From: Candidatus Oxydemutatoraceae bacterium
Lineage (GTDB): Bacteria > Pseudomonadota > Gammaproteobacteria > Poriferisulfidales > Oxydemutatoraceae
Direction of reading: 5' to 3'
Length of the DNA stretch: 64,000 nt
Assembly (NCBI GenBank): GCA_965218975.1
Contig: OZ244717.1
Location: 64,001-128,000, forward strand
The notes under the pieces: generated by a model
Databases searched by the model: none
What the model saw: the letters and a program-made list of their open reading frames with translations, nothing else
Told to the model about the DNA's origin: nothing
In this document: positions 12,254 through 56,074 of the stretch, one piece after another
Numbering within the stretch: position 1 is the first letter of the stretch
Layout of the letters: every line of letters begins with the position of its first letter
Position numbers and translations under genes: made by a program

Positions 12254-12439
12254 GTAAAGTACGAACCCGTCTGCAGAATTATGAAGTGAGTTATTGATTT
12301 TACTACGAACCTTCTGACTTATGCAGTATCTGTACGATGCCACCCTAAATGGGATTTTTGAAGGGCGCTTCGGGGGAAGCGTTCGGCAGTAACATTCGGA
12401 TCGGTGCTTTCTGTCCGTTGCCGGCATGAGGACGGTGCA

Positions 12440-12537
12440 GGGTGAGACGCGCCCGGAAAACCGATCGGTTTTCAGCGGCGAACGACCCGACAAGGATGTC
12501 GGGGCTGGCGTTCATTGACAGAACCAAGTCTCGTCAT
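12440..12537. repeat. 98-bp structured repeat, 1 unit
   Basis: GGGTGAGACGCGCCCGGAAAACCGATCGGTTTTC...CCCGACAAGGATGTCGGG...GTCTCGTCAT. Confidence 0.95.
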
Positions 12538-12791
12538 GGACGACAGACACTTTGCTGAGCATTCGCCAACAAACACAAAACGGTTTCATAACCGGTCATT
12601 GAATGCTTCCGTATCGGCGAATAGCAGGTCTTCTGCATGATCGATACAATCTTCTTGGACGGTGCGGTTGAAGCGCTCGATGTGCGCGTTCATTTTTGGA
12701 CACTTGGGATAGGTCAGCCACTGCTCAATCGCGGGTGATTCCCGGATGAGCCGGGCAAACTGTCCTTGAAACTCACTACCACCGTCTGTCA

Positions 12792-12987
12792 GGGTGAGAT
12801 GCGCCCGGAAAACCGATCGGTTTTCAGCGGCGAACGACCCGACAAGGATGTCGGGGCTGGCGCTCATTGACAGAACCAAGTCTCGTCATGGGTGAGACGC
12901 GCCCGGAAAACCGATTGGTTTTCAGCGGCGAACGACCCGACAAGGACGTCGGGGCTGGCGTTCATTGACAGAACCAAGTCTCGTCAT
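12792..12987. repeat. 98-bp structured repeat, 2 tandem units
   Basis: Units start at 12792 and 12890 (period 98). Confidence 0.95.
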
Positions 12988-13382
12988 GGACGACAGGCAC
13001 TTTGCTGAGCATTCACCAGCAAACACAAAATAGTTTCATCAGCTCAAAGACTTTACTGCTGCCGAAATTCTGCCAGGCGCAGGAATGCGGCTGCGTTGCG
13101 GCTGTTACAGCGGTTGGTTGCCACTGCTATTGCCATTCGGGTATAGACATCGATGGTCGTTAAGACGTAGCGGCGCACTCCGTGCTGATAACGCACAATC
13201 GTATCCAGGGCGATGCAATGCCCCGCCGGATACTGTGCTTTGAAGTGTTTCGGCTTGCGTGCCCTGCAACGGCGCTTAAACGGTCGTTTTGTTTATCCTT
13301 TGGCATTCAGCCGCTGCGGAATACAGCGCATTTTATCCGGCGCATCTGCGATCAGGCGCGCAATCGTGCGGACACTCAGGCA

Positions 13383-13480
13383 GGGTGAGACGCGCCCGGA
13401 AAACCAATTGGTTTTCAGCGGTGAACGACCCGACAAGGACGTCGGGGCTGGGGCTTGTTGACAGAACCCAGTCGCGTCAT
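13383..13480. repeat. 98-bp structured repeat, 1 unit (AATT variant)
   Basis: Palindrome GAAAACCAATTGGTTTTC. Confidence 0.95.
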
Positions 13481-13579
13481 AGATGACAGGCACTTTGCCG
13501 ACAATCCGGCAACAAACACAAAACGGTTTCATCAGCTCAAAGATTTTACTGCTGCCGAGATTCGGATAAGCCTGGCGCA

Positions 13580-13775
13580 GGGTGAGACGCGCCCGGAAAA
13601 CCGATCGGTTTTCAGCGGCGAACGACTCGACAAGGACGTCAGGGCTGGCGCTCATTGACAGAACCAAGTCTCGTCATGGGTGAGACGCGCCCGGAAAACC
13701 AATTGGTTTTCAGCGGCGAACGATCCGACAAGGATGTCGGGGCTGGCGCTCATTGACAGAACCAAGTCTCGTCAT
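13580..13775. repeat. 98-bp structured repeat, 2 tandem units
   Basis: Units start at 13580 and 13678. Confidence 0.95.
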
Positions 13776-14324
13776 GGACGACAGGCACTGCGCTGACAAT
13801 CCGCTGGCGCCTCTTACGCGGCGCTTTGCCGCGATCATGCAAGGCGCTGAGACCAGTGCGGCGATAACGCCGGCGCCAACGGTACAAAGTACTGCGACCG
13901 ATCTTGAATGCGTTCGGGAGTTACAACCCTCCCAAAATAATAGGGCATCATATTTCTGTTGAAGATTAGAGCGCTCATGAGCCTCTATTTTTGAAGCAAA
14001 ATTGGCTGTACGATGCCATCATAAATGGGATTTTTGAAGGGCTTCGAAGGAAGCGTTCGGCAGTAACATTCGGATCGGTGCTTTCTGCCCGTTGCCGGCT
14101 GAGTCAGGAACAACGACAACTACTTAGAGAGTATGCCGAGGAGCACGGCCTGCAATGCCCTGGTCGGCAGAGCGATCAGGGCAAATAATACGGATTGAGC
14201 GATTTATCCCTGGGTCACAGCGATACGGCAGAATAACGGCAGAGATAGTCATTAGCGGAGGCGACTACCCGCTTTCCAAAACTCGGAAAATCACCCCGGC
14301 GGATCCGCGCATGCTGAAGTTCAG

Positions 14325-23403: not shown

Positions 23404-23779
23404 ACCGTCCGTCCGATTCTTTATTAGATGCCCGGCATAACTTATCTCCTGTACAGTGCCAGATACATGTGGGATTCACGGCACGACTCAAAAAGGTAAC
23501 CGATATGCAATATCAGCACATCGGCCACCGCATCAAAGGTTTCTATATGAGCCAATTTTGCTTCAAAAATAGAGGCTCATAAACACAACGGCTCAACAGA
23601 AATATGATGCCCTATTATTTTGGGAGGGTTGTAACTCCCGAACGCATTCAAGATCAATCGCAGTACTTTGTACCGCTGGCGCCGGCGTTATCGCCGCATT
23701 GGCCTCAGCGCCTTACATGATTGCGGCAAAGCGCCGCGTAAGAGGCGCCAGCGGATTGTCAGCAAAGTGCTTGTCGTCC

Positions 23780-23877
23780 ATGACGAGACTTGGTTCTGTC
23801 AATGAACGCCAGCCCCGACGTCCTTGTCGAGTCGTTCGCCGCTGAAAACCGATCGGTTTTCCGGGCGCGTCTCACCC
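23780..23877. repeat. 98-bp structured repeat, 1 unit
   Basis: ATGACGAGACTTGG...GCGTCTCACCC. Confidence 0.95.
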
Positions 23878-24290
23878 TGCCCGAGTGTCTGCACGATTGC
23901 GCGCCTGATCGCAGATGCGCCGGATAAAATGCGCTGTATTCCGCAGCGGCTGAATGCCAAAGGACAAACAAAACGACCGTTTAAGCGCCGTTGCAGGGCA
24001 CGCAAGCCGAAACACTTCAAAGCACAGTATCCGGGGCATTGCATCGCCCTGGATACGATTGTGCGTGATCAGCACGGAGTACGCCGCTACGTCTTAACGG
24101 CCATCAATGCCTATACCCGAATGGCAATAGCAGTGGCAACCAACCGCTGTAACAGCCACAACGCAGCCGCATTCCTGCGCCTGGCAGAATTTCGGCAGCA
24201 GTAAAGTCTTTGAGCTGATGAAACCATTTTGTGTTTGCTGCCGGATTGTCGGCGGATTGTGCCGGATTGTCAGCGCAGTGCCTGTCGTCC

Positions 24291-24486
24291 ATGACGAGAC
24301 TTGGTTCTGTCAATGAGCGCCAGCCCCGACATCCTTGTCGGGTCGTTCGCCGCTGAAAACCAATTGGTTTTCCGGGCGCGTCTCACCCATGACGAGACTT
24401 GGTTCTGTCAATGAGCGCCAGCCCCGACGTCCTTGTCGGGTCGTTCGCCGCTGAAAACCGATCGGTTTTCCGGGCGCGTCTCACCC
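24291..24486. repeat. 98-bp structured repeat, 2 tandem units
   Basis: Units at 24291 (AATT) and 24389 (GATC). Confidence 0.95.
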
Positions 24487-24740
24487 TGACGGACGGCGGG
24501 AGTGAGTTTCAAGGACAGTTTGCCCGGCTCATCCGGGAATCACCCGTGATTGAGCAGTGGCTGACCTATCCCAAGTGTCCAAAAATGAACGCGCACATCG
24601 AGTGCTTCAACCGCACCGTCCAAGAAGATTGTATCGATCATGCAAAAGACCTGCTATTCGCCGATACGGAAGCATTCAATGACCGGTTATGAAACCGTTT
24701 TGTGTTTGTTGGCGGATTTTCGGCACAGTGCCTGTCATCC

Positions 24741-24936
24741 ATGACGAGACTTGGTTCTGTCAATGAGCGCCAGCCCCGACGTCCTTGTCGGGTCGTTCAC
24801 CGCTGAAAACCAATTGGTTTTCCGGGCGCGTCTCACCCATGACGAGACTTGGTTCTGTCAATGAGCGCCAGCCCCGACGTCCTTGTCGGGTCGTTCGCCA
24901 CTGAAAACCGATCGGTTTTCCGGGCACGTCTCACCC
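24741..24936. repeat. 98-bp structured repeat, 2 tandem units
   Basis: Units at 24741 and 24839. Confidence 0.95.
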
Positions 24937-25198
24937 TACACCGTCCTCATGCCGGCAACGGACAGAAAGCACCGGTCCGAATGTTACTGCCGAACGCTTC
25001 CTCCGAAGCCCTTCAAAAATCCCATTTAGGGTGGCATCGTACAATCTCTTTACGCTAGTTCTCTATAAATCATAATACGGCTTGCGGAAAATAATCCTCT
25101 ACACTTTACTCTTACTCATACTCAGTCACGGCACAATAGACAAGTAATATGCAGACTTGGAGGGAAACCTGTTGTCCGAACTGTGCCCTTTGATGAAA

Positions 25199-37121: not shown

Positions 37122-37298
37122 ATTCCAAACTTATTTTGCCAGTTTCTAAAGGTGTATATTCTAGCAAAAAATCAATCCCGGTAATAGAGTGTGTACGATG
37201 CCACCCTAAATGGGATTCTTGGAGGGCTTCGGGGGAAGCGTTCGGCAGTAACATTCGGACCGGTGCTTTCTCCCCGTTGCCGACATGAGGGCGGTGCA

Positions 37299-37494
37299 GG
37301 GTGAGACGCGCCCGGAAAACCGATCGGTTTTCAGCGGCGAACGACCCGACAAGGACGTCGGGGCTGGCACTCATTGACAGAACCCAGTCTCGTCATGGGT
37401 GAGACGCGCCCGGAAAACCAATTGGTTTTCAGCGGTGAACGACCCGACAAGGACGTCGGGGCTGGAGCTTGTTGACAGAACCCAGTCGCGTCAT
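37299..37494. repeat. 98-bp structured repeat, 2 tandem units
   Basis: Units at 37299 and 37397. Confidence 0.95.
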
Positions 37495-37769
37495 GGATGA
37501 CAGGCACTTTGCCGACAATCCGGCACAATCCGCCGAAAATCCGACAACAAACACAAAACGGTTTCATAACCGGTCATTGAATGCTTCCGTATCGGCGAAT
37601 AGCAGGTCTTCTGCATGATCGATACAATCTTCTTGGACGGTGCGGTTGAAGCGCTTGATGTGCGCGTTCATTTTCGGACACTTGGGATAGGTCAGCCGTT
37701 GCTCGGTCGCAGGTGATTCCCGGATGAGCCGGGCAAACTGCCCTTGAAACTCACTGCCGCCGTCCGTCA

Positions 37770-37867
37770 GGGTGAGACGCGCTCGGAAAACCGATCGGTT
37801 TTCAGCGGCGAACGACCCGACAAGGACGTCGGGGCTGGTGCTCATTGACAGAACCAAGTCTCGTCAT
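37770..37867. repeat. 98-bp structured repeat, 1 unit
   Basis: Sits between the KVLV and LTDGG codons of the transposase. Confidence 0.95.
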
Positions 37868-38393
37868 GGACGACAAGCACTTTGCCAGGTTGCGGCAGTA
37901 CCGACACTATACACGCCAGGGTCAGGCGCAGGAATGCGGCAGCACTACGGCTGTTACAGCGGTTGGTTGCCGTTGCTGTTGCCATACGGGTATAGACATC
38001 AATAGCCTATATGTTGGATTTGCAAGGCTTCTCCTCCTGTCGGCAGGAGTGCCAAATGTTTCTGAGCTTATGCATGCGAGGCGCTAGTCCCAGTGCGGCG
38101 ATAATGCCGACGCCAACGGTACAAAGTGCTGCGACCGACCTTGAATGCGTTCGGGAGTTACAACCCTCCCAAAATGAGGGCATCATATTTCTGTTGAAGT
38201 TTAGAGCACTCATGAGCCTCCATCTTTGAGGTTAAACAGGCTCATATAGAAACCTTTGATGCGGTGGCCGATGTGCTGATATTACATATTGCATATCGGT
38301 CACCTTTTTATTGAAAAGTATTTTCCGGTATGTATCTGGACACGTACATCAAACCCTTATATGATTAATCTTATTCACTGGCTTGAAGCAATA

Positions 38394-45057: not shown

Positions 45058-45968
45058 TAGATATTCTCCTGCTTGATCCCCTCTTGCTTTCGCGGTGAAA
45101 TATCATCAATTAACCAACGCACTAAATCCACCCACATTTGTCGCAATTCGGCGTCTGCCGGCATATAACGTGACGAAGCAAGTTCAATCGTCAGCAACGG
45201 CAACTTGATGATCTCGCCGGCATAGCGTCCGAGCGAACCTGGGAATGTTCCAAGATCACCCAATCTCAAACTGCCTAAACCTGCAGGCGGAGCAACCGTA
45301 TCAGGGCCGTCATAATCAACCATGCCGTAAGGTGCGTGTAAAGATATGATTACGTCCGGCTTGAAACTGGCGATTTCATCTACCAGCCAACGTGTTTCAT
45401 TTTCACTGGCGGCGGTTGCTCCCGGATAACGTCGAAAATCACGTCCGGTTTCTTTTTCCCAGTACAACAAAGCGTCTTCCCAGTTTCCGGTCGGCAGATT
45501 ACGATTTAGGTCCACCCGGTTGTGATTGACTCTGACTGCCGGACTCTTTAGCAAACCGTCAAGATTCAATGCCGGAATAATGTGCCAATGAAAAAGCCCC
45601 GAATGATGTTGATCCAGAATCTTCATCCACTTAAACATCACGCTAAAAGAAGCGTATTCATCACCGTGCACCCCACCGATCAATAAGACACGAGCGCGTG
45701 GTGTTTTTCCTACAAGCGGCGGATATTCTTTATATAAAATCGGATTGCCCAAAGCAGTATAGGCATATGTTTCTTTCAGATGAAGCTCCAAGCACTCCCG
45801 AACATTCACCGATGTCAGCTTATTACCTACTCGCTCACATGCTGCTTGCATACTAATCGTTCCCGCTCGCACCGACAAAATTGGAATACTAACGAACAAA
45901 ATGACGATCATCGCACTTCTGATCGGATATGAAATTTTAGCTTTTACCAAAGTGGCCACTCCTTTCAC
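45054..45968 (-). CDS. M14 murein peptide amidase (MpaA-like)
   Basis: GGVHGDE, N.DG, VDLNRN, SLHAP, PGSLG.Y, TIEL. Confidence 0.8.
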   Translation of the reverse strand: MKGVATLVKAKISYPIRSAMIVILFVSIPILSVRAGTISMQAACERVGNKLTSVNVRECLELHLKETYAYTALGNPILYKEYPPLVGKTPRARVLLIGGVHGDEYASFSVMFKWMKILDQHHSGLFHWHIIPALNLDGLLKSPAVRVNHNRVDLNRNLPTGNWEDALLYWEKETGRDFRRYPGATAASENETRWLVDEIASFKPDVIISLHAPYGMVDYDGPDTVAPPAGLGSLRLGDLGTFPGSLGRYAGEIIKLPLLTIELASSRYMPADAELRQMWVDLVRWLIDDISPRKQEGIKQENIY

Positions 45969-46402
45969 TTATTGTCTCAGACACTTGGTACTCGAAAATA
46001 ATCTTTTCTGATCAAGATTAAAAGATTAAAAAAGGCTAATCTGCAAAAGCGCCGACCCTCCGCTCTGTATAATGCCAGATACATATGGGACTCACGGCTT
46101 AACTCGAAAAGATGACCGATATGCAATATCAGCACATCGGCCACCGCATCAAAGATTTCTATATGAGCCAATTTTGCTTTAAAAATAGAGGCTCATGAAC
46201 ACAACGGCTCAACAGAAACACGATGCCATGTTATTTTGGAGGATTGTAACCCTAAACGCATTCAAGGTCGGTCGCAGCACTTTGTCCCGTTGGCGTCGGC
46301 GTTATCGCCGCACTGGCCTCAGCGCCTTGCATGACCGCGGCAAAGCGCCGCGCAAGAGGCGTCGGCGGGTCTGGCTGCAACCCGGCAAAGTGCCTGTCGT
46401 CC

Positions 46403-46607
46403 ATGACGAGACTTGGTTCTGTCAATGAGCGCCAGCCCCGACGTCCTTGTCGGGTCGTTCGCCGCTGAAAACCGATCGGTTTTCCGGGCGCGTCTCACCC
46501 TGCTCGTCCATGACGAGACTTGGTTCTGTCAATGAACCCCAGCCCCGACATCCTTGTCGGGTCGTTCGCCGCTGAAAACCGATCGGTTTTCCGGGCGCGT
46601 CTCACCC
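46403..46607. repeat. 98-bp structured repeat, 2 units with 9-bp spacer TGCTCGTCC
   Basis: Units at 46403 and 46510. Confidence 0.95.
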
Positions 46608-46968
46608 TGCCCGAGTGTCCGCACGATTGCGCGCCTGATCGCGGATGCGCCGGATAAAATGCGCTGTATTCCGCAGCGGCTGAATGCCAAAGGACAAACA
46701 AAACGACCGTTTAAGCGCCGTTGCAGGGCACGCAAGCCGAAACACTTCAAAGCACAGTATCCGGGGCATTGCATCGCCCTGGATACGATTGTGCGTTATC
46801 AGCACGGAGTGCGCCGCACCATCTTAACGGCCATCAATGTCCATACCCGAATGGCAATAGCAGTGGCAACCAACCGCTGTAACAGCCGCAACGCAGCCGC
46901 ATTCCTGCGCCTGACCCTGGCGTGTATAGTGTCGGTACTGCCGCAACCTGGCAAAGTGCTTGTCGTCC

Positions 46969-47066
46969 ATGACGAGACTTGGTTCTGTCAATAAGCACCA
47001 GCCCCGACATCCTTGTCGGGTCGTTCGCCGCTGAAAACCGATCGGTTTTCCGAGCGCGTCTCACCC
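46969..47066. repeat. 98-bp structured repeat, 1 unit
   Basis: Sits between the KVLV and LTDGG codons. Confidence 0.95.
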
Positions 47067-47341
47067 TGACGGACGGCGGGAGTGAGTTTCAAGGACAGTT
47101 TGCCCGGCTCATCCGGGAATCACCCGTGATTGAGCAGTGGCTGACCTATCCCAAGTGTCCAAAAATGAACGCGCACATCAAGCGCTTCAACCGCACCGTC
47201 CAAGAAGATTGTATCGATCATGCAGAAGACCTGCTATTCGCCGATACGGAAGCATTGAATGACCGGTTATGAAACCGTTTTGTGTTTGTTGGTGGATTGT
47301 CGGCGGATTGTGCCGGATTGTCGGCAAAGTGCCTGTCGTCC

Positions 47342-47546
47342 ATGACGAGACTTGGTTCTGTCAATGAGCGCCAGCCCCGACGTCCTTGTCGGGTCGTTCG
47401 CCGCTGAAAACCGACCGGTTTTCCGGGCGCGTCTCACCCTGCTCGTCCATGACGAGACTTGGTTCTGTCAATGAGCGCCAGCCCCGACGTCCTTGTCGGG
47501 TCGTTCGCCGCTGAAAACCGATCGGTTTTCCGGGCGCGTCTCACCC
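47342..47546. repeat. 98-bp structured repeat, 2 units with 9-bp spacer
   Basis: Units at 47342 and 47449. Confidence 0.95.
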
Positions 47547-47755
47547 TGCACCGCCCTCATGCCGGCAGCGGACAGAAAGCACCGATCCGAATGTTACTGC
47601 CGAACGCTTCCCCAGAAGCTCTTCAAAAATCCCATTTAGGGTGGCATCGTACATTATATTGCTATTTTTTTTTTCTAATGTAGAATAAACCTCTTTGAAA
47701 GCAAAGACCTTTTGCACCGGTTTTCACAAAACAGAATACCCATGGCTCCATAAAA

Positions 47756-48085
47756 TTGAGTGACAATATTATTGAACACATCACAGATGGCGATTTTGAA
47801 CGAAGCGTACTGCAATCGGACATTCCCGCTTTAGTGGATTTCTGGGCATCGTGGTGCGGACCATGCAAAGCTATCGCTCCGATACTAGAAGAAATTGCGG
47901 TGGATTACAAAGGAAAACTTAAAATTTTAAAACTTAACGTTGATGAAAATCGCAAAAATCCCGAACAATACGGTATTCGCGGCATCCCGACCTTGATAAT
48001 TTTTAAAAATGGTAATGCCGAAGCGACCCACATCGGCGCCCTTACTAAATCGCAACTAACCACTTTTATTGATCAAAATATATAA
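47756..48085 (+). CDS. trxA: thioredoxin
   Basis: DFWA.WCGPCK, GIRGIPTL; lies upstream of rho. Confidence 0.97.
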   Translation: MSDNIIEHITDGDFERSVLQSDIPALVDFWASWCGPCKAIAPILEEIAVDYKGKLKILKLNVDENRKNPEQYGIRGIPTLIIFKNGNAEATHIGALTKSQLTTFIDQNI

Positions 48086-54431: not shown

Positions 54432-54770
54432 TGTATAGTGCCAGATACATATGGGACTCACGGCTTAACTCGAAAAGGTGACCGATATGCAATATCAGCA
54501 CATCGGCCACCGCATCAAAGGTTTCTATATGAGCCAATTTTGCTTCAAAAATAGAGGCTCATGAACACAACGGCTCAACAGAAACACGATGCCCTGTTAT
54601 TTTGGGAGGATTGTAACTCCCGAACACATTCAAGCTCAGTCGTAGCACTTTGTATGCCTGGCGCAAGCGTTATCGCCGCACTGGGCTCAGCGCCTTGCAT
54701 GACCGCGGCAAAGCACCGCGCAAGAGGCGTCGGCGGATCTGGCCGCAACCTGGCAAAGTGCCTGTCATCC

Positions 54771-54975
54771 ATGACGAGACTTGGTTCTGTCAATGAGCGC
54801 CAGCCTCGACGTCCTTGTCGGGTCGCTTGCCGCTGAAAACCGATCGGTTTTCCGGGCGCATCTCACCCTGCTCGTCCGTGATGAGACTTGGTTCTGCGAA
54901 TGAACCCCAGCCCCGACATCCTTGTTGGGTCGTTCGCCGCTGAAAACCGATCGGTTTTCCGGGCGCATCTCACCC
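54771..54975. repeat. 98-bp structured repeat, 2 units with 9-bp spacer
   Basis: Units at 54771 and 54878. Confidence 0.93.
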
Positions 54976-55368
54976 TGCCCGAGTGTCCGCACGATTGCGG
55001 CCTGATCGCGGATGCGCCGGATAAAATGCGCTGTATTCTGCAGCATCTGAATGCCAAAGAACAAACAAAACGACTGTTCAAGCACCGTTGCAAGGCACGC
55101 AAGCCGAAACACTTCAAAGCACAGTATCCGGGGCATTGCATCGCCTTGGATACAATCGTGCGTTATCAGCACGGGGTGCGCCGCACCATATTAACGGCCA
55201 TTGATGTCTATACCCGTATGGCAACAGCAGCGGCAACCAACCGCTGTAACAGCCGTAGTACTGCCGCATTCCTGCACCTGGCAGAATTTCGGCAGCAGTA
55301 AAGTCTTTGAGCTGATGAAACCATTTTGTGTTTGCTGCCGAATTGTCGGCGGATTGTGCCTGTCATCC

Positions 55369-55662
55369 ATGACGCGACTGGGTTCTGTCAACAAGCGCCA
55401 GCCCCGACGTCCTTGTCGGGTCGTTCACCGCTGAAAACCAATTGGTTTTCCGGGCGCGTCTCACCCATGACGAGACTTGGTTCTGTCAACAAGCGCCAGC
55501 CTCGACGTCCTTGTCGGGTCGTTCACCGCTGAAAACCAATTGGTTTTCCGGGCGCGTCTCACCCATGACGAGACTTGGTTCTGTCAACAAGCGCCAGCCC
55601 CGACGTCCTTGTCGGGTCGTTCGCCGCTGAAAACCGATCGGTTTTCCGGGCGCGTCTCACCC
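55369..55662. repeat. 98-bp structured repeat, 3 tandem units
   Basis: Units at 55369, 55467 and 55565. Confidence 0.95.
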
Positions 55663-56074
55663 TGACGGACGGCGGTAGTGAGTTTCAAGGACAGTTTGCC
55701 CGGCTCATCCGGGAATCACCCGCGATTGAGCAGTGGCTGACCTATCCCAAGTGTCCAAAAATGAACGCGCACATTGAGCGCTTCAACCGCACCGTCCAAG
55801 AAGATTGTATCGATCATGCGGAAGATCTGCTATTCGCCGATACGGAAGCATTCAATGACCGGTTATGGGAGTATTTAGCCTGGTATAAGCTGCACCGTCC
55901 TCATGTCGGCAACGGACAGAAAGCACCGATCCGAATGTTATTGCCGAGCGCTTCCCTCGAAGCTCTTCAAAAATCCCATTTTTAGGGTAACATCGTACAC
56001 AAAATCCACTATCAGCGTATTTTCCCGGTATAATGGCGCTCTTAATTTTTTTGCTAGTAGTCCAAGGTAGCAAA

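What the first reader, a model, noticed from the sequence alone, without database searches (positions are those of the whole stretch)
46066..47653. Repeat exits at CTG and entries use microhomology: replacement rather than simple insertion
Seen: each non-tandem unit ends GTCTCACC-CTG and resumes the transposase at one of four native CTGs: CTGCGCCAGG (A), CTGCCCGAG (A,B,D,E), CTGACGGAC (all five) and CTGCACCG (A-D; CTA in B). On the entry side the gene jumps into a shared linker through 3-8 bp microhomologies, e.g. GGTTATG|AAACC at about 47270 and CCTGCGCC at about 24175, losing short native pieces. In C and D the site KVLV|LTDGG loses nothing and looks like the founding 101-bp insertion just before the second catalytic Asp. 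Its left edge CCATGACGAGAC resembles the target CCTGACGGAC. Inference: the module spread by template switching or gene conversion, or by nested self-insertion followed by deletions that stop at the repeat edge.
Basis: partly seen in the sequence, partly recalled or inferred. Interest (0 to 1): 0.75.

Follow-up and report, generated by a model that had tools for sequence, protein, structure and literature searches.

The report
Repeat patches inside dead jumping genes
A 98-base hairpin repeat lies inside more than a hundred dead copies of one jumping gene, and it got to its several positions through copy-and-join accidents that overwrote short native stretches and mostly rejoined the gene at a CTG, which is an unusual piece of junk-DNA history rather than a new machine.

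Summary
Window 46066-47653 is one decayed IS481-family element. It belongs to a family with remnants in 126 stretches of this 2.08 Mb genome. It carries five units of a genome-specific 98-bp GC-rich hairpin repeat (R).

Confirmed:
- R leaves the gene at native CTGs, in the window and genome-wide (144 of 168 edge-to-native joints fall on four CTG sites).
- Entries run through a shared non-native linker and use 3-9 nt microhomologies.
- Every patch replaces native bases (about 13-38 nt).

Refuted:
- The KVLV|LTDGG site is not a clean founding insertion. Empty-site copies and intact outside homologues show about 13 native bases (VKYI) overwritten there.
- The founder is the site before CTGCCCGAG. 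Later patches carry its native left flank.

The five window copies are not independent. I count about 13 distinct exit joints and roughly ten entry classes, each shared by many copies.

CTG preference among distinct landing sites is still strong: 7 of 13, against 2.2% expected. One of these landings is in non-IS DNA. Non-CTG exits also exist.

Best reading: microhomology-mediated templated patches anchored at R's 3' edge, plus R-R unequal recombination and IS amplification or gene conversion. No enzyme for R mobility was found. An earlier scan note had already described the repeat arrays in these dead IS copies; the junction rules are new.

The parts
46066..47653 (+). Decayed IS481-family element, 'copy D', 1588 bp, with both terminal inverted repeats
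   Evidence: NCBIfam NF033577 gives partial hits only. Chain map to the repeat-free reference. The ends TGTATAATGCC... and ...GGCATCGTACA are read directly.
46066..46379 (+). Native segment A: left end, HTH region, up to ...RRRRVW
   Evidence: reference positions 1-316, 89% identity. HTH_28 hit.
46380..46401 (+). Entry joint of the first patch: ACC plus the linker tail CGGCAAAGTGCCTGTCGTC
   Evidence: entry class N316->X40, 8 copies genome-wide.
46402..46606 (+). Two R units (46402-46499 and 46509-46606) joined by the 9-nt CTGCTCGTC (107-bp period)
46607..46609 (+). Exit 2: the native CTG of ...L-C-P-S-V-R-T-I...
   Evidence: The empty site in copy G000 210250(-) reads ...CAGCTGCT|CTGCCC. There are 19 joints of this class.
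46607..46922 (+). Native segment C: transposase middle part with the first catalytic Asp region
   Evidence: reference 436-752, 97% identity. tblastn to intact homologues.
46923..46967 (+). Entry joint at site 3: 27 nt (TGTATAGTGTCGGTA plus CTGCCGCAACCT), then the linker tail GGCAAAGTGCTTGTCGTC. It replaces the native GGTAAAATATATT.
   Evidence: 6 copies share the 27-nt form; a seventh has a variant form. The native state is seen in L010, G000 278968 and G000 1183160.
46968..47065 (+). R unit 3, a single unit
47066..47271 (+). Exit 3 (native CTG at 47066-47068) and native segment D: LTDGGSEF... to ...NDRLM. The catalytic Glu position reads Lys here.
   Evidence: There are 30 joints of this class.
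47272..47340 (+). Entry joint at site 4: 11 nt AAACCGTTTTG copied from the native left flank of site 2, then the 58-nt non-native linker with its 10-11-nt minisatellite. It replaces 22 native nt.
   Evidence: 44 copies. The empty site 4 is seen in window copy E and in G000 1500730.
47341..47545 (+). Two R units (47341-47438 and 47448-47545), 107-bp period
47546..47653 (+). Exit 4 (native CTG at 47546-47548, the Leu of ...K-L-H-R-P-H) and native segment E up to the right inverted repeat
   Evidence: 57 joints of this class.
12330..14103 (-). Copy A of the same IS. It has all four exits.
   Evidence: G000 76330-78103.
23448..25043 (+). Copy B. It has exits 2, 3 and 4 (exit 4 reads CTA). The entry via CCTGCGCC lies near 24175.
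37192..38309 (-). Copy C. It is internally deleted and has exits 3 and 4.
54432..55999 (+). Copy E. It has exits 2 and 3. Site 4 is EMPTY: the native 22 nt lie at 55868-55889 and the CTG at 55890.

Best explanation
R is a genome-specific, strongly folding 98-bp repeat of unknown origin, always preceded by a non-native linker. It entered one IS481-family element once, just upstream of the CTG of ...LCPSVRTI (site 2), and overwrote 18 native bases there.

It reached its other positions by a small number of microhomology-mediated, templated 'patch' events. In each, a stretch ending exactly at R's 3' edge (...GTCTCACC, followed by CTG(C)) and starting at a variable point upstream was copied. The copy was joined in at a short homology on the left and at a C-rich or CTG(C) microhomology on the right, replacing about 13-38 native bases.

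The resulting forms were then multiplied and shuffled in three ways:
- amplification of the already dead IS copies in trans, and/or gene conversion among copies;
- unequal homologous recombination between R units, which duplicates or deletes the gene segments between them;
- tandem expansion of R.

What is shown: the joints, their microhomologies, the replaced native bases, the order founder-to-derived, and the clustering of breakpoints at R's 3' edge.

What is inferred: the enzymology. The candidates are replication template switching or single-strand annealing of the SPDIR/MMBIR kind. I also infer that the closing stem GAGAC...GTCTC, three bases from the edge, makes that spot a preferred break or dissociation point.
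For: (1) Empty sites.
- Empty sites for all four positions exist in other copies.
- Sites 3 and 4 are colinear without gaps with intact homologues P0001 and the G017 transposase.
- Sites 1 and 2 keep the spacing of those homologues. I compared this by eye with the ORF and the proteins.

(2) Founder order.
- The linker abuts native flank only at site 2 (66 joints).
- Patches at site 4 (44 joints), at site 3 (14 joints, via the 8-nt CCTGCGCC) and in IS481 subfamily beta (3 joints) contain native DNA from the left of site 2.

(3) Microhomologies at entries: ATG (3 nt), CCTGCGCC (8), TCGGCGGAT (up to 9), ATGAAA (6).

(4) Hot spot at the R edge.
- About 17 distinct joint types start at the last base of R, by my tally of the tables.
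- About 12 start anywhere else in R's other 97 positions.

(5) Landing sites. 7 of 13 distinct native landing sites begin with CTG, against 24 CTG in 1113 positions of the repeat-free reference. The binomial probability is 3e-9, or 8e-8 for 6 of 12 if the mutated one is dropped.

(6) Every exit also matches R's terminal CC or CCC, and several match CTGC(G)C, which amounts to extended microhomology.

(7) A joint of the same type occurs in non-IS DNA: a 302-bp tandem triplication whose joint is the R edge landing on a genomic CCCTGCGCG.

(8) Unequal recombination between R units: tandem [segment D + patch] blocks and many [segment B + R] arrays.

(9) Arrays inside one copy resemble each other.
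- They share the 98- versus 107-bp joint type in 36 of 40 pairs, against 24.6 expected (2 of 5000 shuffles reach this).
- Their units are more alike than same-site units of other copies (0.059 against 0.080; 0 of 2000 permutations reach this).

(10) recA is present.

(11) R stays with the IS. R and linker are never apart (115 of 115 linker hits are followed by R). 185 of 195 arrays adjoin IS DNA, and orientation agrees in 186 of 189.

(12) 5-bp target duplications flank 4 of 27 two-ended, R-laden copies.
Against: - The mechanism is inferred from scars only. No intermediate, polymorphism or active event was seen.
- If the donor flank already carried CTG(C), landing on CTG follows from microhomology and is not a separate preference. 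It still does not explain why the donor break is always at R's edge.
- Patches of 116 to about 330 bp are longer than the 3 to about 100 bp described for SPDIR (bioRxiv 10.1101/2023.11.22.568220, Introduction read).
- Even the founder event replaces native bases, and its donor is unknown. Linker and R show no significant similarity to the IS or to each other (best 22-33 of 1000 shuffles).
- How R-laden copies without any intact transposase spread to dozens of loci is unexplained. No copy is intact (0 matches over the family cut-off).
- The tree of segment D is a star. It cannot separate descent from gene conversion.
Confidence: 0.58

Rival explanations
1. Linker+R is, or was, a true non-autonomous mobile element. 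It has an enzymatically defined 3' end and prefers to integrate just 5' of CTG(C). It would be copied one-ended (rolling-circle/HUH-like or by reverse transcription), so the 5' extent varies and upstream flank is carried along. The enzyme has since been lost.
For: - The 3' end is exact in about 17 distinct joint types and the 5' extent varies.
- CTG is enriched among landing sites (7 of 13).
- Hits occur in a second IS481 subfamily and in non-IS DNA.
- The orientation is constant.
- The last hairpin ends 15 nt before the edge. This resembles the geometry of IS200/IS605 ends, which I recall rather than tested.
Against: - No RVT_1 and no Y1_Tnp are found in the genome. Y2_Tnp and IS91 are also not found, but the controls for those searches were silent.
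- Every integration deletes about 13-38 native bases and shows microhomology. Cut-and-paste, peel-and-paste and rolling-circle elements do not do this as a rule (established knowledge, recalled).
- Almost no copies lie outside IS481 DNA, although CTG is everywhere in the genome (185 of 195 arrays adjoin IS DNA; genome CTG frequency 1.2%).
- Six of 13 exits are not at CTG.
- There is no Rfam family.
Confidence: 0.15
2. Nested self-insertion and deletion only. IS copies inserted into one another, and later deletions with one end at the repeat edge, plus R-R crossovers, produced all the mosaics. No templated patching would be needed.
For: - The entry at site 3 in window copies C and D (7 copies in all) has 15 nt that begin with the 9-nt IS left terminus TGTATAGTG. 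The bases that follow match the site-1 entry form.
- Ordinary microhomology deletions are abundant in the family, with dozens of singleton joints.
- Truncated forms A-R-C, A-R-D and A-R-E exist.
Against: - Backward joints cannot arise by deletion alone. Examples are the end of segment D joined to the upstream flank of site 2 (44 copies) and segment C joined to segment B (14 copies). They need a duplication or a switch of template.
- No IS terminus is seen at the other entries.
- The joint in non-IS DNA is a duplication.
Confidence: 0.12
3. All four R positions were present in one master copy that then amplified. The window pattern would be pure inheritance, and nothing recurrent happened at CTG.
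For: - The same breakpoints are shared by up to 66 copies.
- The segment D tree is star-like.
- Target duplications flank R-laden copies.
Against: - Empty sites persist at every position.
- There are at least three different entry classes at site 1 and two at site 3, all with the same exit.
- Separate R-edge joints exist in subfamily beta, in a diverged alpha' copy and in non-IS DNA.
- Even one master copy would have needed four edge-at-CTG events.
Confidence: 0.1

Closest known systems
[quoted passage not shown] 2016, as described in bioRxiv 10.1101/2023.11.22.568220; I read the abstract, the Introduction and the first Results section)
   Same: - A stretch of native DNA is replaced by an ectopic stretch copied from elsewhere in the genome.
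- Both joints carry microhomology or extended, interrupted microhomology.
- No dedicated enzyme is needed.
   Different: - The patches here are 116 to about 330 bp, against 3 to about 100 bp for SPDIR.
- One end of the donor is always the same base, the 3' edge of a hairpin repeat.
- The events are fossil and were then amplified to dozens of copies.
Microhomology-mediated template switching and tandem duplication: MMBIR (PMC2621351) and MTD (PMC13167724). For both I saw only the search listing and the start of the abstract.
   Same: - Joints at 2-9 nt homologies.
- Duplications mixed with deletions.
- Tandem duplications that can expand into arrays.
   Different: Those models do not predict a single recurrent donor breakpoint at the foot of a structured repeat.
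Small structured bacterial repeats inserted in genes or IS elements: MITEs, Correia elements, REP/BIME, Rickettsia palindromic elements. All recalled; none tested against a library other than Rfam.
   Same: - About 100 bp long, GC-rich and hairpin-forming.
- Present in hundreds of copies.
- Can sit inside coding sequence.
   Different: - R has no terminal inverted repeats beyond 5 nt and no target duplication.
- It has one orientation only.
- It is practically confined to one IS family.
- It always follows a shared linker and always comes with loss of target bases.
IS481-family insertion sequences (NCBIfam NF033577)
   Same: - The host element has an HTH plus DDE (rve-type) transposase in pieces.
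- It has terminal inverted repeats.
- Some copies have 5-bp target duplications.
   Different: - No copy in this genome reaches the family cut-off (best 90 bits against 224).
- All copies are interrupted or truncated.

Membership tests
IS481-family insertion sequence (the host element) | A transposase that matches NF033577 over its curated cut-off | tested here: not met
   The genome gives 118 partial matches. The best scores 90.1 bits against a cut-off of 224, and none is over the cut-off. The window pieces score 28-32 bits. The pieces are colinear with intact IS481-type proteins of relatives. This is therefore a decayed member.
IS481-family insertion sequence (the host element) | Terminal inverted repeats and short target-site duplications | tested here: met
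   The ends TGTA(C/T)AGTGCC... and ...GGCATCGTACA are read directly. A perfect 5-bp duplication flanks 4 of 27 two-ended copies.
MITE-type mobile element (for R) | Terminal inverted repeats, a target-site duplication, and dispersed copies in both orientations outside the parent element | tested here: not met
   Only the 5-nt pair GAGAC/GTCTC is inverted. There is no duplication; native bases are lost instead. 185 of 195 arrays adjoin IS DNA, and orientation equals that of the IS in 186 of 189.
IS200/IS605-derived palindromic element (PATE/REP) | A Y1 HUH transposase in the genome, and clean insertion next to a fixed tetra- or pentanucleotide | tested here: not met
   PF01797 gives no match in the genome, while the control rang in 6 of 14 genomes. 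Insertions are not clean. Subterminal hairpins are present.
Rolling-circle (IS91/ISCR) one-ended transposition | A Y2 transposase, and one precise end beside a conserved target | tested here: inconclusive
   PF04986 and NF033538 give no match, but the controls rang nowhere. One precise end beside CTG(C) is seen. Loss of target bases argues against this family.
Retro-element or intron (group I/II intron, retron, DGR) | A reverse transcriptase or a known ribozyme/RNA family, with the reading frame restored on removal | tested here: not met
   There is no RVT_1 and no Rfam hit at E<=1 in window 45900-47800. Removing the patches leaves deletions of 18, about 13 and 22 nt, of which 22 is out of frame.
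SPDIR / microhomology-mediated templated patch | Native bases are replaced, the donor is identifiable elsewhere, and both joints carry microhomology | tested here: met
   This holds for sites 1, 3 and 4, subfamily beta and the non-IS locus.
SPDIR / microhomology-mediated templated patch | Patch size of 3 to about 100 bp | tested here: not met
   The smallest patch is linker tail plus one R, 116 bp. The largest are about 330 bp. The size range is taken from the Introduction of bioRxiv 10.1101/2023.11.22.568220.

The most novel reading that the evidence does not exclude
The 3' foot of R (...GTCTC-ACC^CTG) is a structurally or enzymatically defined end. It repeatedly released or primed a single strand that invaded CTG(C) sites. 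On this reading R behaves as a 'one-ended, hairpin-anchored copy-paste' parasite of an IS family, a mode of spread between illegitimate recombination and true transposition. It killed, or marked, the transposase genes of more than a hundred IS copies.
Probability: 0.2. Interest if true: 0.7.

Novelty: new variant of a known kind. Interest (0 to 1): 0.4.

Why it matters
The locus gives a natural, well-replicated record of templated patch mutations in a bacterium: about 170 joints falling into about 25 classes. These patches are larger than the SPDIR events described from the laboratory, and one hairpin foot acts as a recurrent donor breakpoint. If the hot spot is real, short structured repeats can colonise and inactivate a whole IS family without a transposase of their own. 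That bears on how IS bursts end and on how repeat arrays are born in shrinking genomes. It also serves as a practical warning: several look-alike copies in one window are not independent events.

Tried and rejected
- Rfam scan of window 45900-47800 at E<=1: no family.
- Exact 29-mer of R in genome contigs and metagenome contigs: 0 matches each; the window's own genome may be left out of those collections.
- R in 40 relatives: not found in those searched.
- Sequencing runs: no RNA holder is listed. Only Logan contigs were available. They stop at the IS ends (46102 and 47625), and the 'joints' are other copies of the same family. This gave no information on excision, circles or heterogeneity at this copy.
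- Tree of 34 segment-D copies: a star with 1 well-supported inner branch out of 31. It could not test single against multiple origins.
- Similarity of linker or R to the IS, to each other, or to inverted native sequence: not significant. The idea that the linker is a decayed R end or an inverted copy of the replaced 18 nt was therefore dropped.
- A Chi-like CCACCAGC lies in the replaced 18 nt. It is noted but not pursued. Chi is recalled from E. coli, and RecC was not found here in a search whose control rang only in E. coli.
- Intron or bypass reading of R: rejected, because removing the patches does not restore the frame.
- One search failed on a search term that was too short. I read the paper by section instead.
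Full report
WHAT IS THERE

Window 46066-47653 is one copy ('D') of a decayed IS481-family insertion sequence.
- Its reading frame survives only in pieces. These give partial hits to NF033577, the IS481 transposase (28-32 bits against a cut-off of 224), and to HTH_28.
- The pieces are separated by five units of a 98-bp, GC-rich repeat (R: CATGACGAGAC...GCGCGTCTCACC) at 46402-46499, 46509-46606, 46968-47065, 47341-47438 and 47448-47545.
- R folds into three or four hairpins. Its z-score against shuffles is -3.6 as DNA and -2.3 as RNA. It matches no Rfam family.

The window holds four more copies of the same element (A-E).

GENOME-WIDE PICTURE

The window is G000:C1:64001-128000 of a 2.081 Mb single-contig genome with 47.7% GC.
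- The genome holds 319 R units of 40 nt or more, 302 of them full length, in 195 arrays.
- IS481-type remnants lie in 126 merged stretches. In 92 of them native IS DNA and R occur together.
- 185 of 195 arrays have native IS DNA within 400 nt. R has the orientation of the IS in 186 of 189 cases.
- A 58-nt linker always precedes an array: 115 of 115 linker hits are followed by R within 80 nt. The linker contains a 10-11-nt minisatellite.
- R was not found in the 40 relatives searched. Its 29-mer was not found in genome contigs or metagenome contigs.
- No copy of the transposase is intact: 0 of 118 matches pass the cut-off.

Two earlier notes of this scan (e1-4721253 and e1-4721254) had already described decayed IS481 copies carrying 98-bp hairpin arrays elsewhere in this genome. 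My data agree with them.

CHECKING THE OBSERVATION

Of 168 joints from the last base of R into native DNA, 144 fall on four sites:

| Site | Sequence at the exit | Joints |
|---|---|---|
| 1 | CTGCGCC | 38 |
| 2 | CTGCCCGAG | 19 |
| 3 | CTGACGGAC | 30 |
| 4 | CTGCACCG | 57 |

The CTGs are native. I found copies with an empty site for every position.
- Sites 1 and 2 are empty in G000 210250(-), and site 1 also in G000 1725800(-).
- Site 3 is empty in L010, in G000 278968 and in the diverged copy at G000 1183160.
- Site 4 is empty in window copy E (native 22 nt at 55868-55889), in G000 551620 and in G000 1500730.
- Across sites 3 and 4 the empty state aligns without gaps to intact transposases from outside. 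These are P0001, from the protein collection, and a 294-aa ORF of relative G017.
- At sites 1 and 2 the spacing also equals that of the G017 and P0001 proteins. I compared this by eye.

The patches are therefore replacements, as the title of the finding says. The native bases lost are about 25-36 nt at site 1, 18 nt at site 2, about 13 nt or 36-38 nt at site 3 (two entry classes) and 22 nt at site 4.

The site 'KVLV|LTDGG' does lose sequence.
- The native state is PVKYI|LTDGGSEF.
- GGCAAAGTGC(C/T)TGTCGTC is the tail of the shared linker.
- In copies C and D the entry also holds 15 odd bases whose first nine equal the commonest left terminus of the IS.

The founder is site 2.
- Only there does the linker follow native flank directly (66 joints).
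- The patches at site 4 begin with 11 nt of that flank, joined at ATG (44 joints).
- The main patches at site 3 begin about 70 nt further upstream, joined at the 8-nt CCTGCGCC (14 joints).
- A patch in a second IS481 subfamily ('beta', for example G000 1204400-1205900) begins with the same flank (3 joints).
- Entries at site 1 fall into three classes: 20, 8 and 10 joints, with homologies of up to 9 nt.

The 166 entry joints reduce to roughly ten classes and a tail of singletons. The five window copies are therefore relatives, not replicates.

IS CTG MORE THAN CHANCE?

Counting distinct landing sites rather than copies:
- Seven begin with CTG. These are the four main sites, one near the right end of the IS (N1081), one in subfamily beta (now reading TTG where the native sequence has CCCTGC), and one in non-IS intergenic DNA. 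At the last of these a 302-bp segment was triplicated, with the joint R edge|CTGCGCGAGC.
- Six do not: CGGCAACGG (12 copies), CAGAAGC (3), CGCCGCTACG in beta (3), CGTTTTGTG (7), and two rare ones.
- I left out one joint with 49 unplaced bases.

CTG fills 24 of 1113 positions of the repeat-free reference. Seven of 13 then has a binomial probability of 3e-9, and six of 12 has 8e-8.

All exits begin with C, or with a C-to-T variant, and match R's terminal CC or CCC. Several also share CTGC(G)C. The same CTG follows R in the 28 intra-array joints of the 107-bp period (CTGCTCGTC). CTG may therefore equally be read as the last three bases of a longer repeat unit.

On either reading the right joint is a 2-8-nt microhomology with the string ...ACCCTGC.

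What microhomology alone does not explain is that the donor break is always at this one spot. By my tally of the tables, about 17 distinct joint types start at the last base of R. About 12 start at all its other positions together.

WHAT SHUFFLED THE COPIES

- Blocks of [segment D + patch] or [segment B + R] repeated in tandem show unequal crossing-over between R units.
- Arrays inside one copy share the 98- or 107-bp joint type in 36 of 40 pairs, against 24.6 expected (2 of 5000 shuffles reach this).
- Their units are more alike than units at the same site in other copies (0.059 against 0.080 for first units, 0 of 2000 permutations; 0.072 against 0.077 for last units, 1 of 2000).
- A weaker same-site signal also exists (4-5 of 1000 permutations).
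- recA and mutS are present. RecC was not found.
- Four of 27 two-ended copies, all R-laden, keep 5-bp target duplications. R-laden copies were therefore either mobilised in trans or filled later by gene conversion. The star-like tree of segment D cannot tell which.

ENZYMES

No reverse transcriptase (RVT_1) and no Y1 HUH transposase is found. Y2 and IS91 are also not found, but those searches had silent controls.

MECHANISM

The scars fit templated patch replacement through two illegitimate joints. This is described for bacteria as SPDIR: single strands annealing at microhomologies in the replication fork (bioRxiv 10.1101/2023.11.22.568220; abstract, Introduction and first Results section read). 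More generally it fits microhomology-mediated template switching (MMBIR, PMC2621351; tandem duplication, PMC13167724; for both I saw only the listing and the start of the abstract).

Two things differ here. The patches are larger (116 to about 330 bp), and the donor end is fixed three bases beyond the closing stem GAGAC...GTCTC. I infer that the folded repeat defines where a nascent or displaced strand ends. This step is not shown.

A true mobile element with a defined 3' end remains possible at about 15%. It is disfavoured by the loss of target bases at every site, by the confinement to IS DNA and by the absence of an enzyme.

READ DATA

Only short-read contigs were available, and they break at the IS ends. 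They say nothing on present-day activity.

VERDICT

Its founder inference is wrong, and its independence is overstated.

The feature is a decayed IS family colonised by a private hairpin repeat through a few microhomology-mediated replacement events with a recurrent breakpoint. It is a new variant of known processes, of moderate interest.

Noticed in passing
G000:C1:1034788-1035700 (outside the window): A 302-bp tandem triplication built from ordinary intergenic DNA plus a 5'-truncated R unit. Its joint is the R edge landing on a genomic CCCTGCGCG. The same kind of joint therefore also forms outside IS DNA.
   Followed up: partly
G000:C1:1204400-1205900 and 588650-590200 (outside the window): A second, clearly different IS481 subfamily carries one patch. 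The patch brought along native DNA of the first subfamily and leaves at a non-CTG site (CGCCGCTACG). The same entry and exit recur in three copies.
   Followed up: partly
G000:C1:405429-405451, 405488-405510, 416818-416843, 712706-712728 (outside the window): A 23-26-nt palindrome (CTGYCTGTG...CAGACAGG) sits inside the loops of two R hairpins, twice at each place. Only 5 matches to the pattern exist in the genome.
   Followed up: partly
window 47283-47340 (and every linker): The linker contains a 10-11-nt minisatellite (GGATTGTCGGC-like), present in 1 to 5 copies in different IS copies.
   Followed up: partly
window 46923-46937 (copy D) and the matching place in copy C: The 15 nt TGTATAGTGTCGGTA start with the 9-nt left terminus of the IS. 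This may be a remnant of an IS copy inserted into another one.
   Followed up: partly
G000:C1:210250-211520 (-), the 18 nt that are replaced at site 2: The replaced native stretch contains CCACCAGC, the reverse complement of the E. coli Chi octamer (recalled). RecC was not found in this genome, in a search whose control rang only in E. coli.
   Followed up: no
window 46580-46913 and 47311-47377, as covered by a contig of coded run X6: A 456-nt contig from a run labelled as another organism carries the R end, exit 2, segment C and the linker/R start, with 12 differences in 334 nt at depth about 3. The repeat and these joints therefore exist in at least one other sample.
   Followed up: no
window 47180 region (copy D): In copy D the conserved ...NAH-I-E-RFNRT motif reads K in place of the catalytic Glu, whereas other copies keep E. 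This is one more sign of decay.
   Followed up: no
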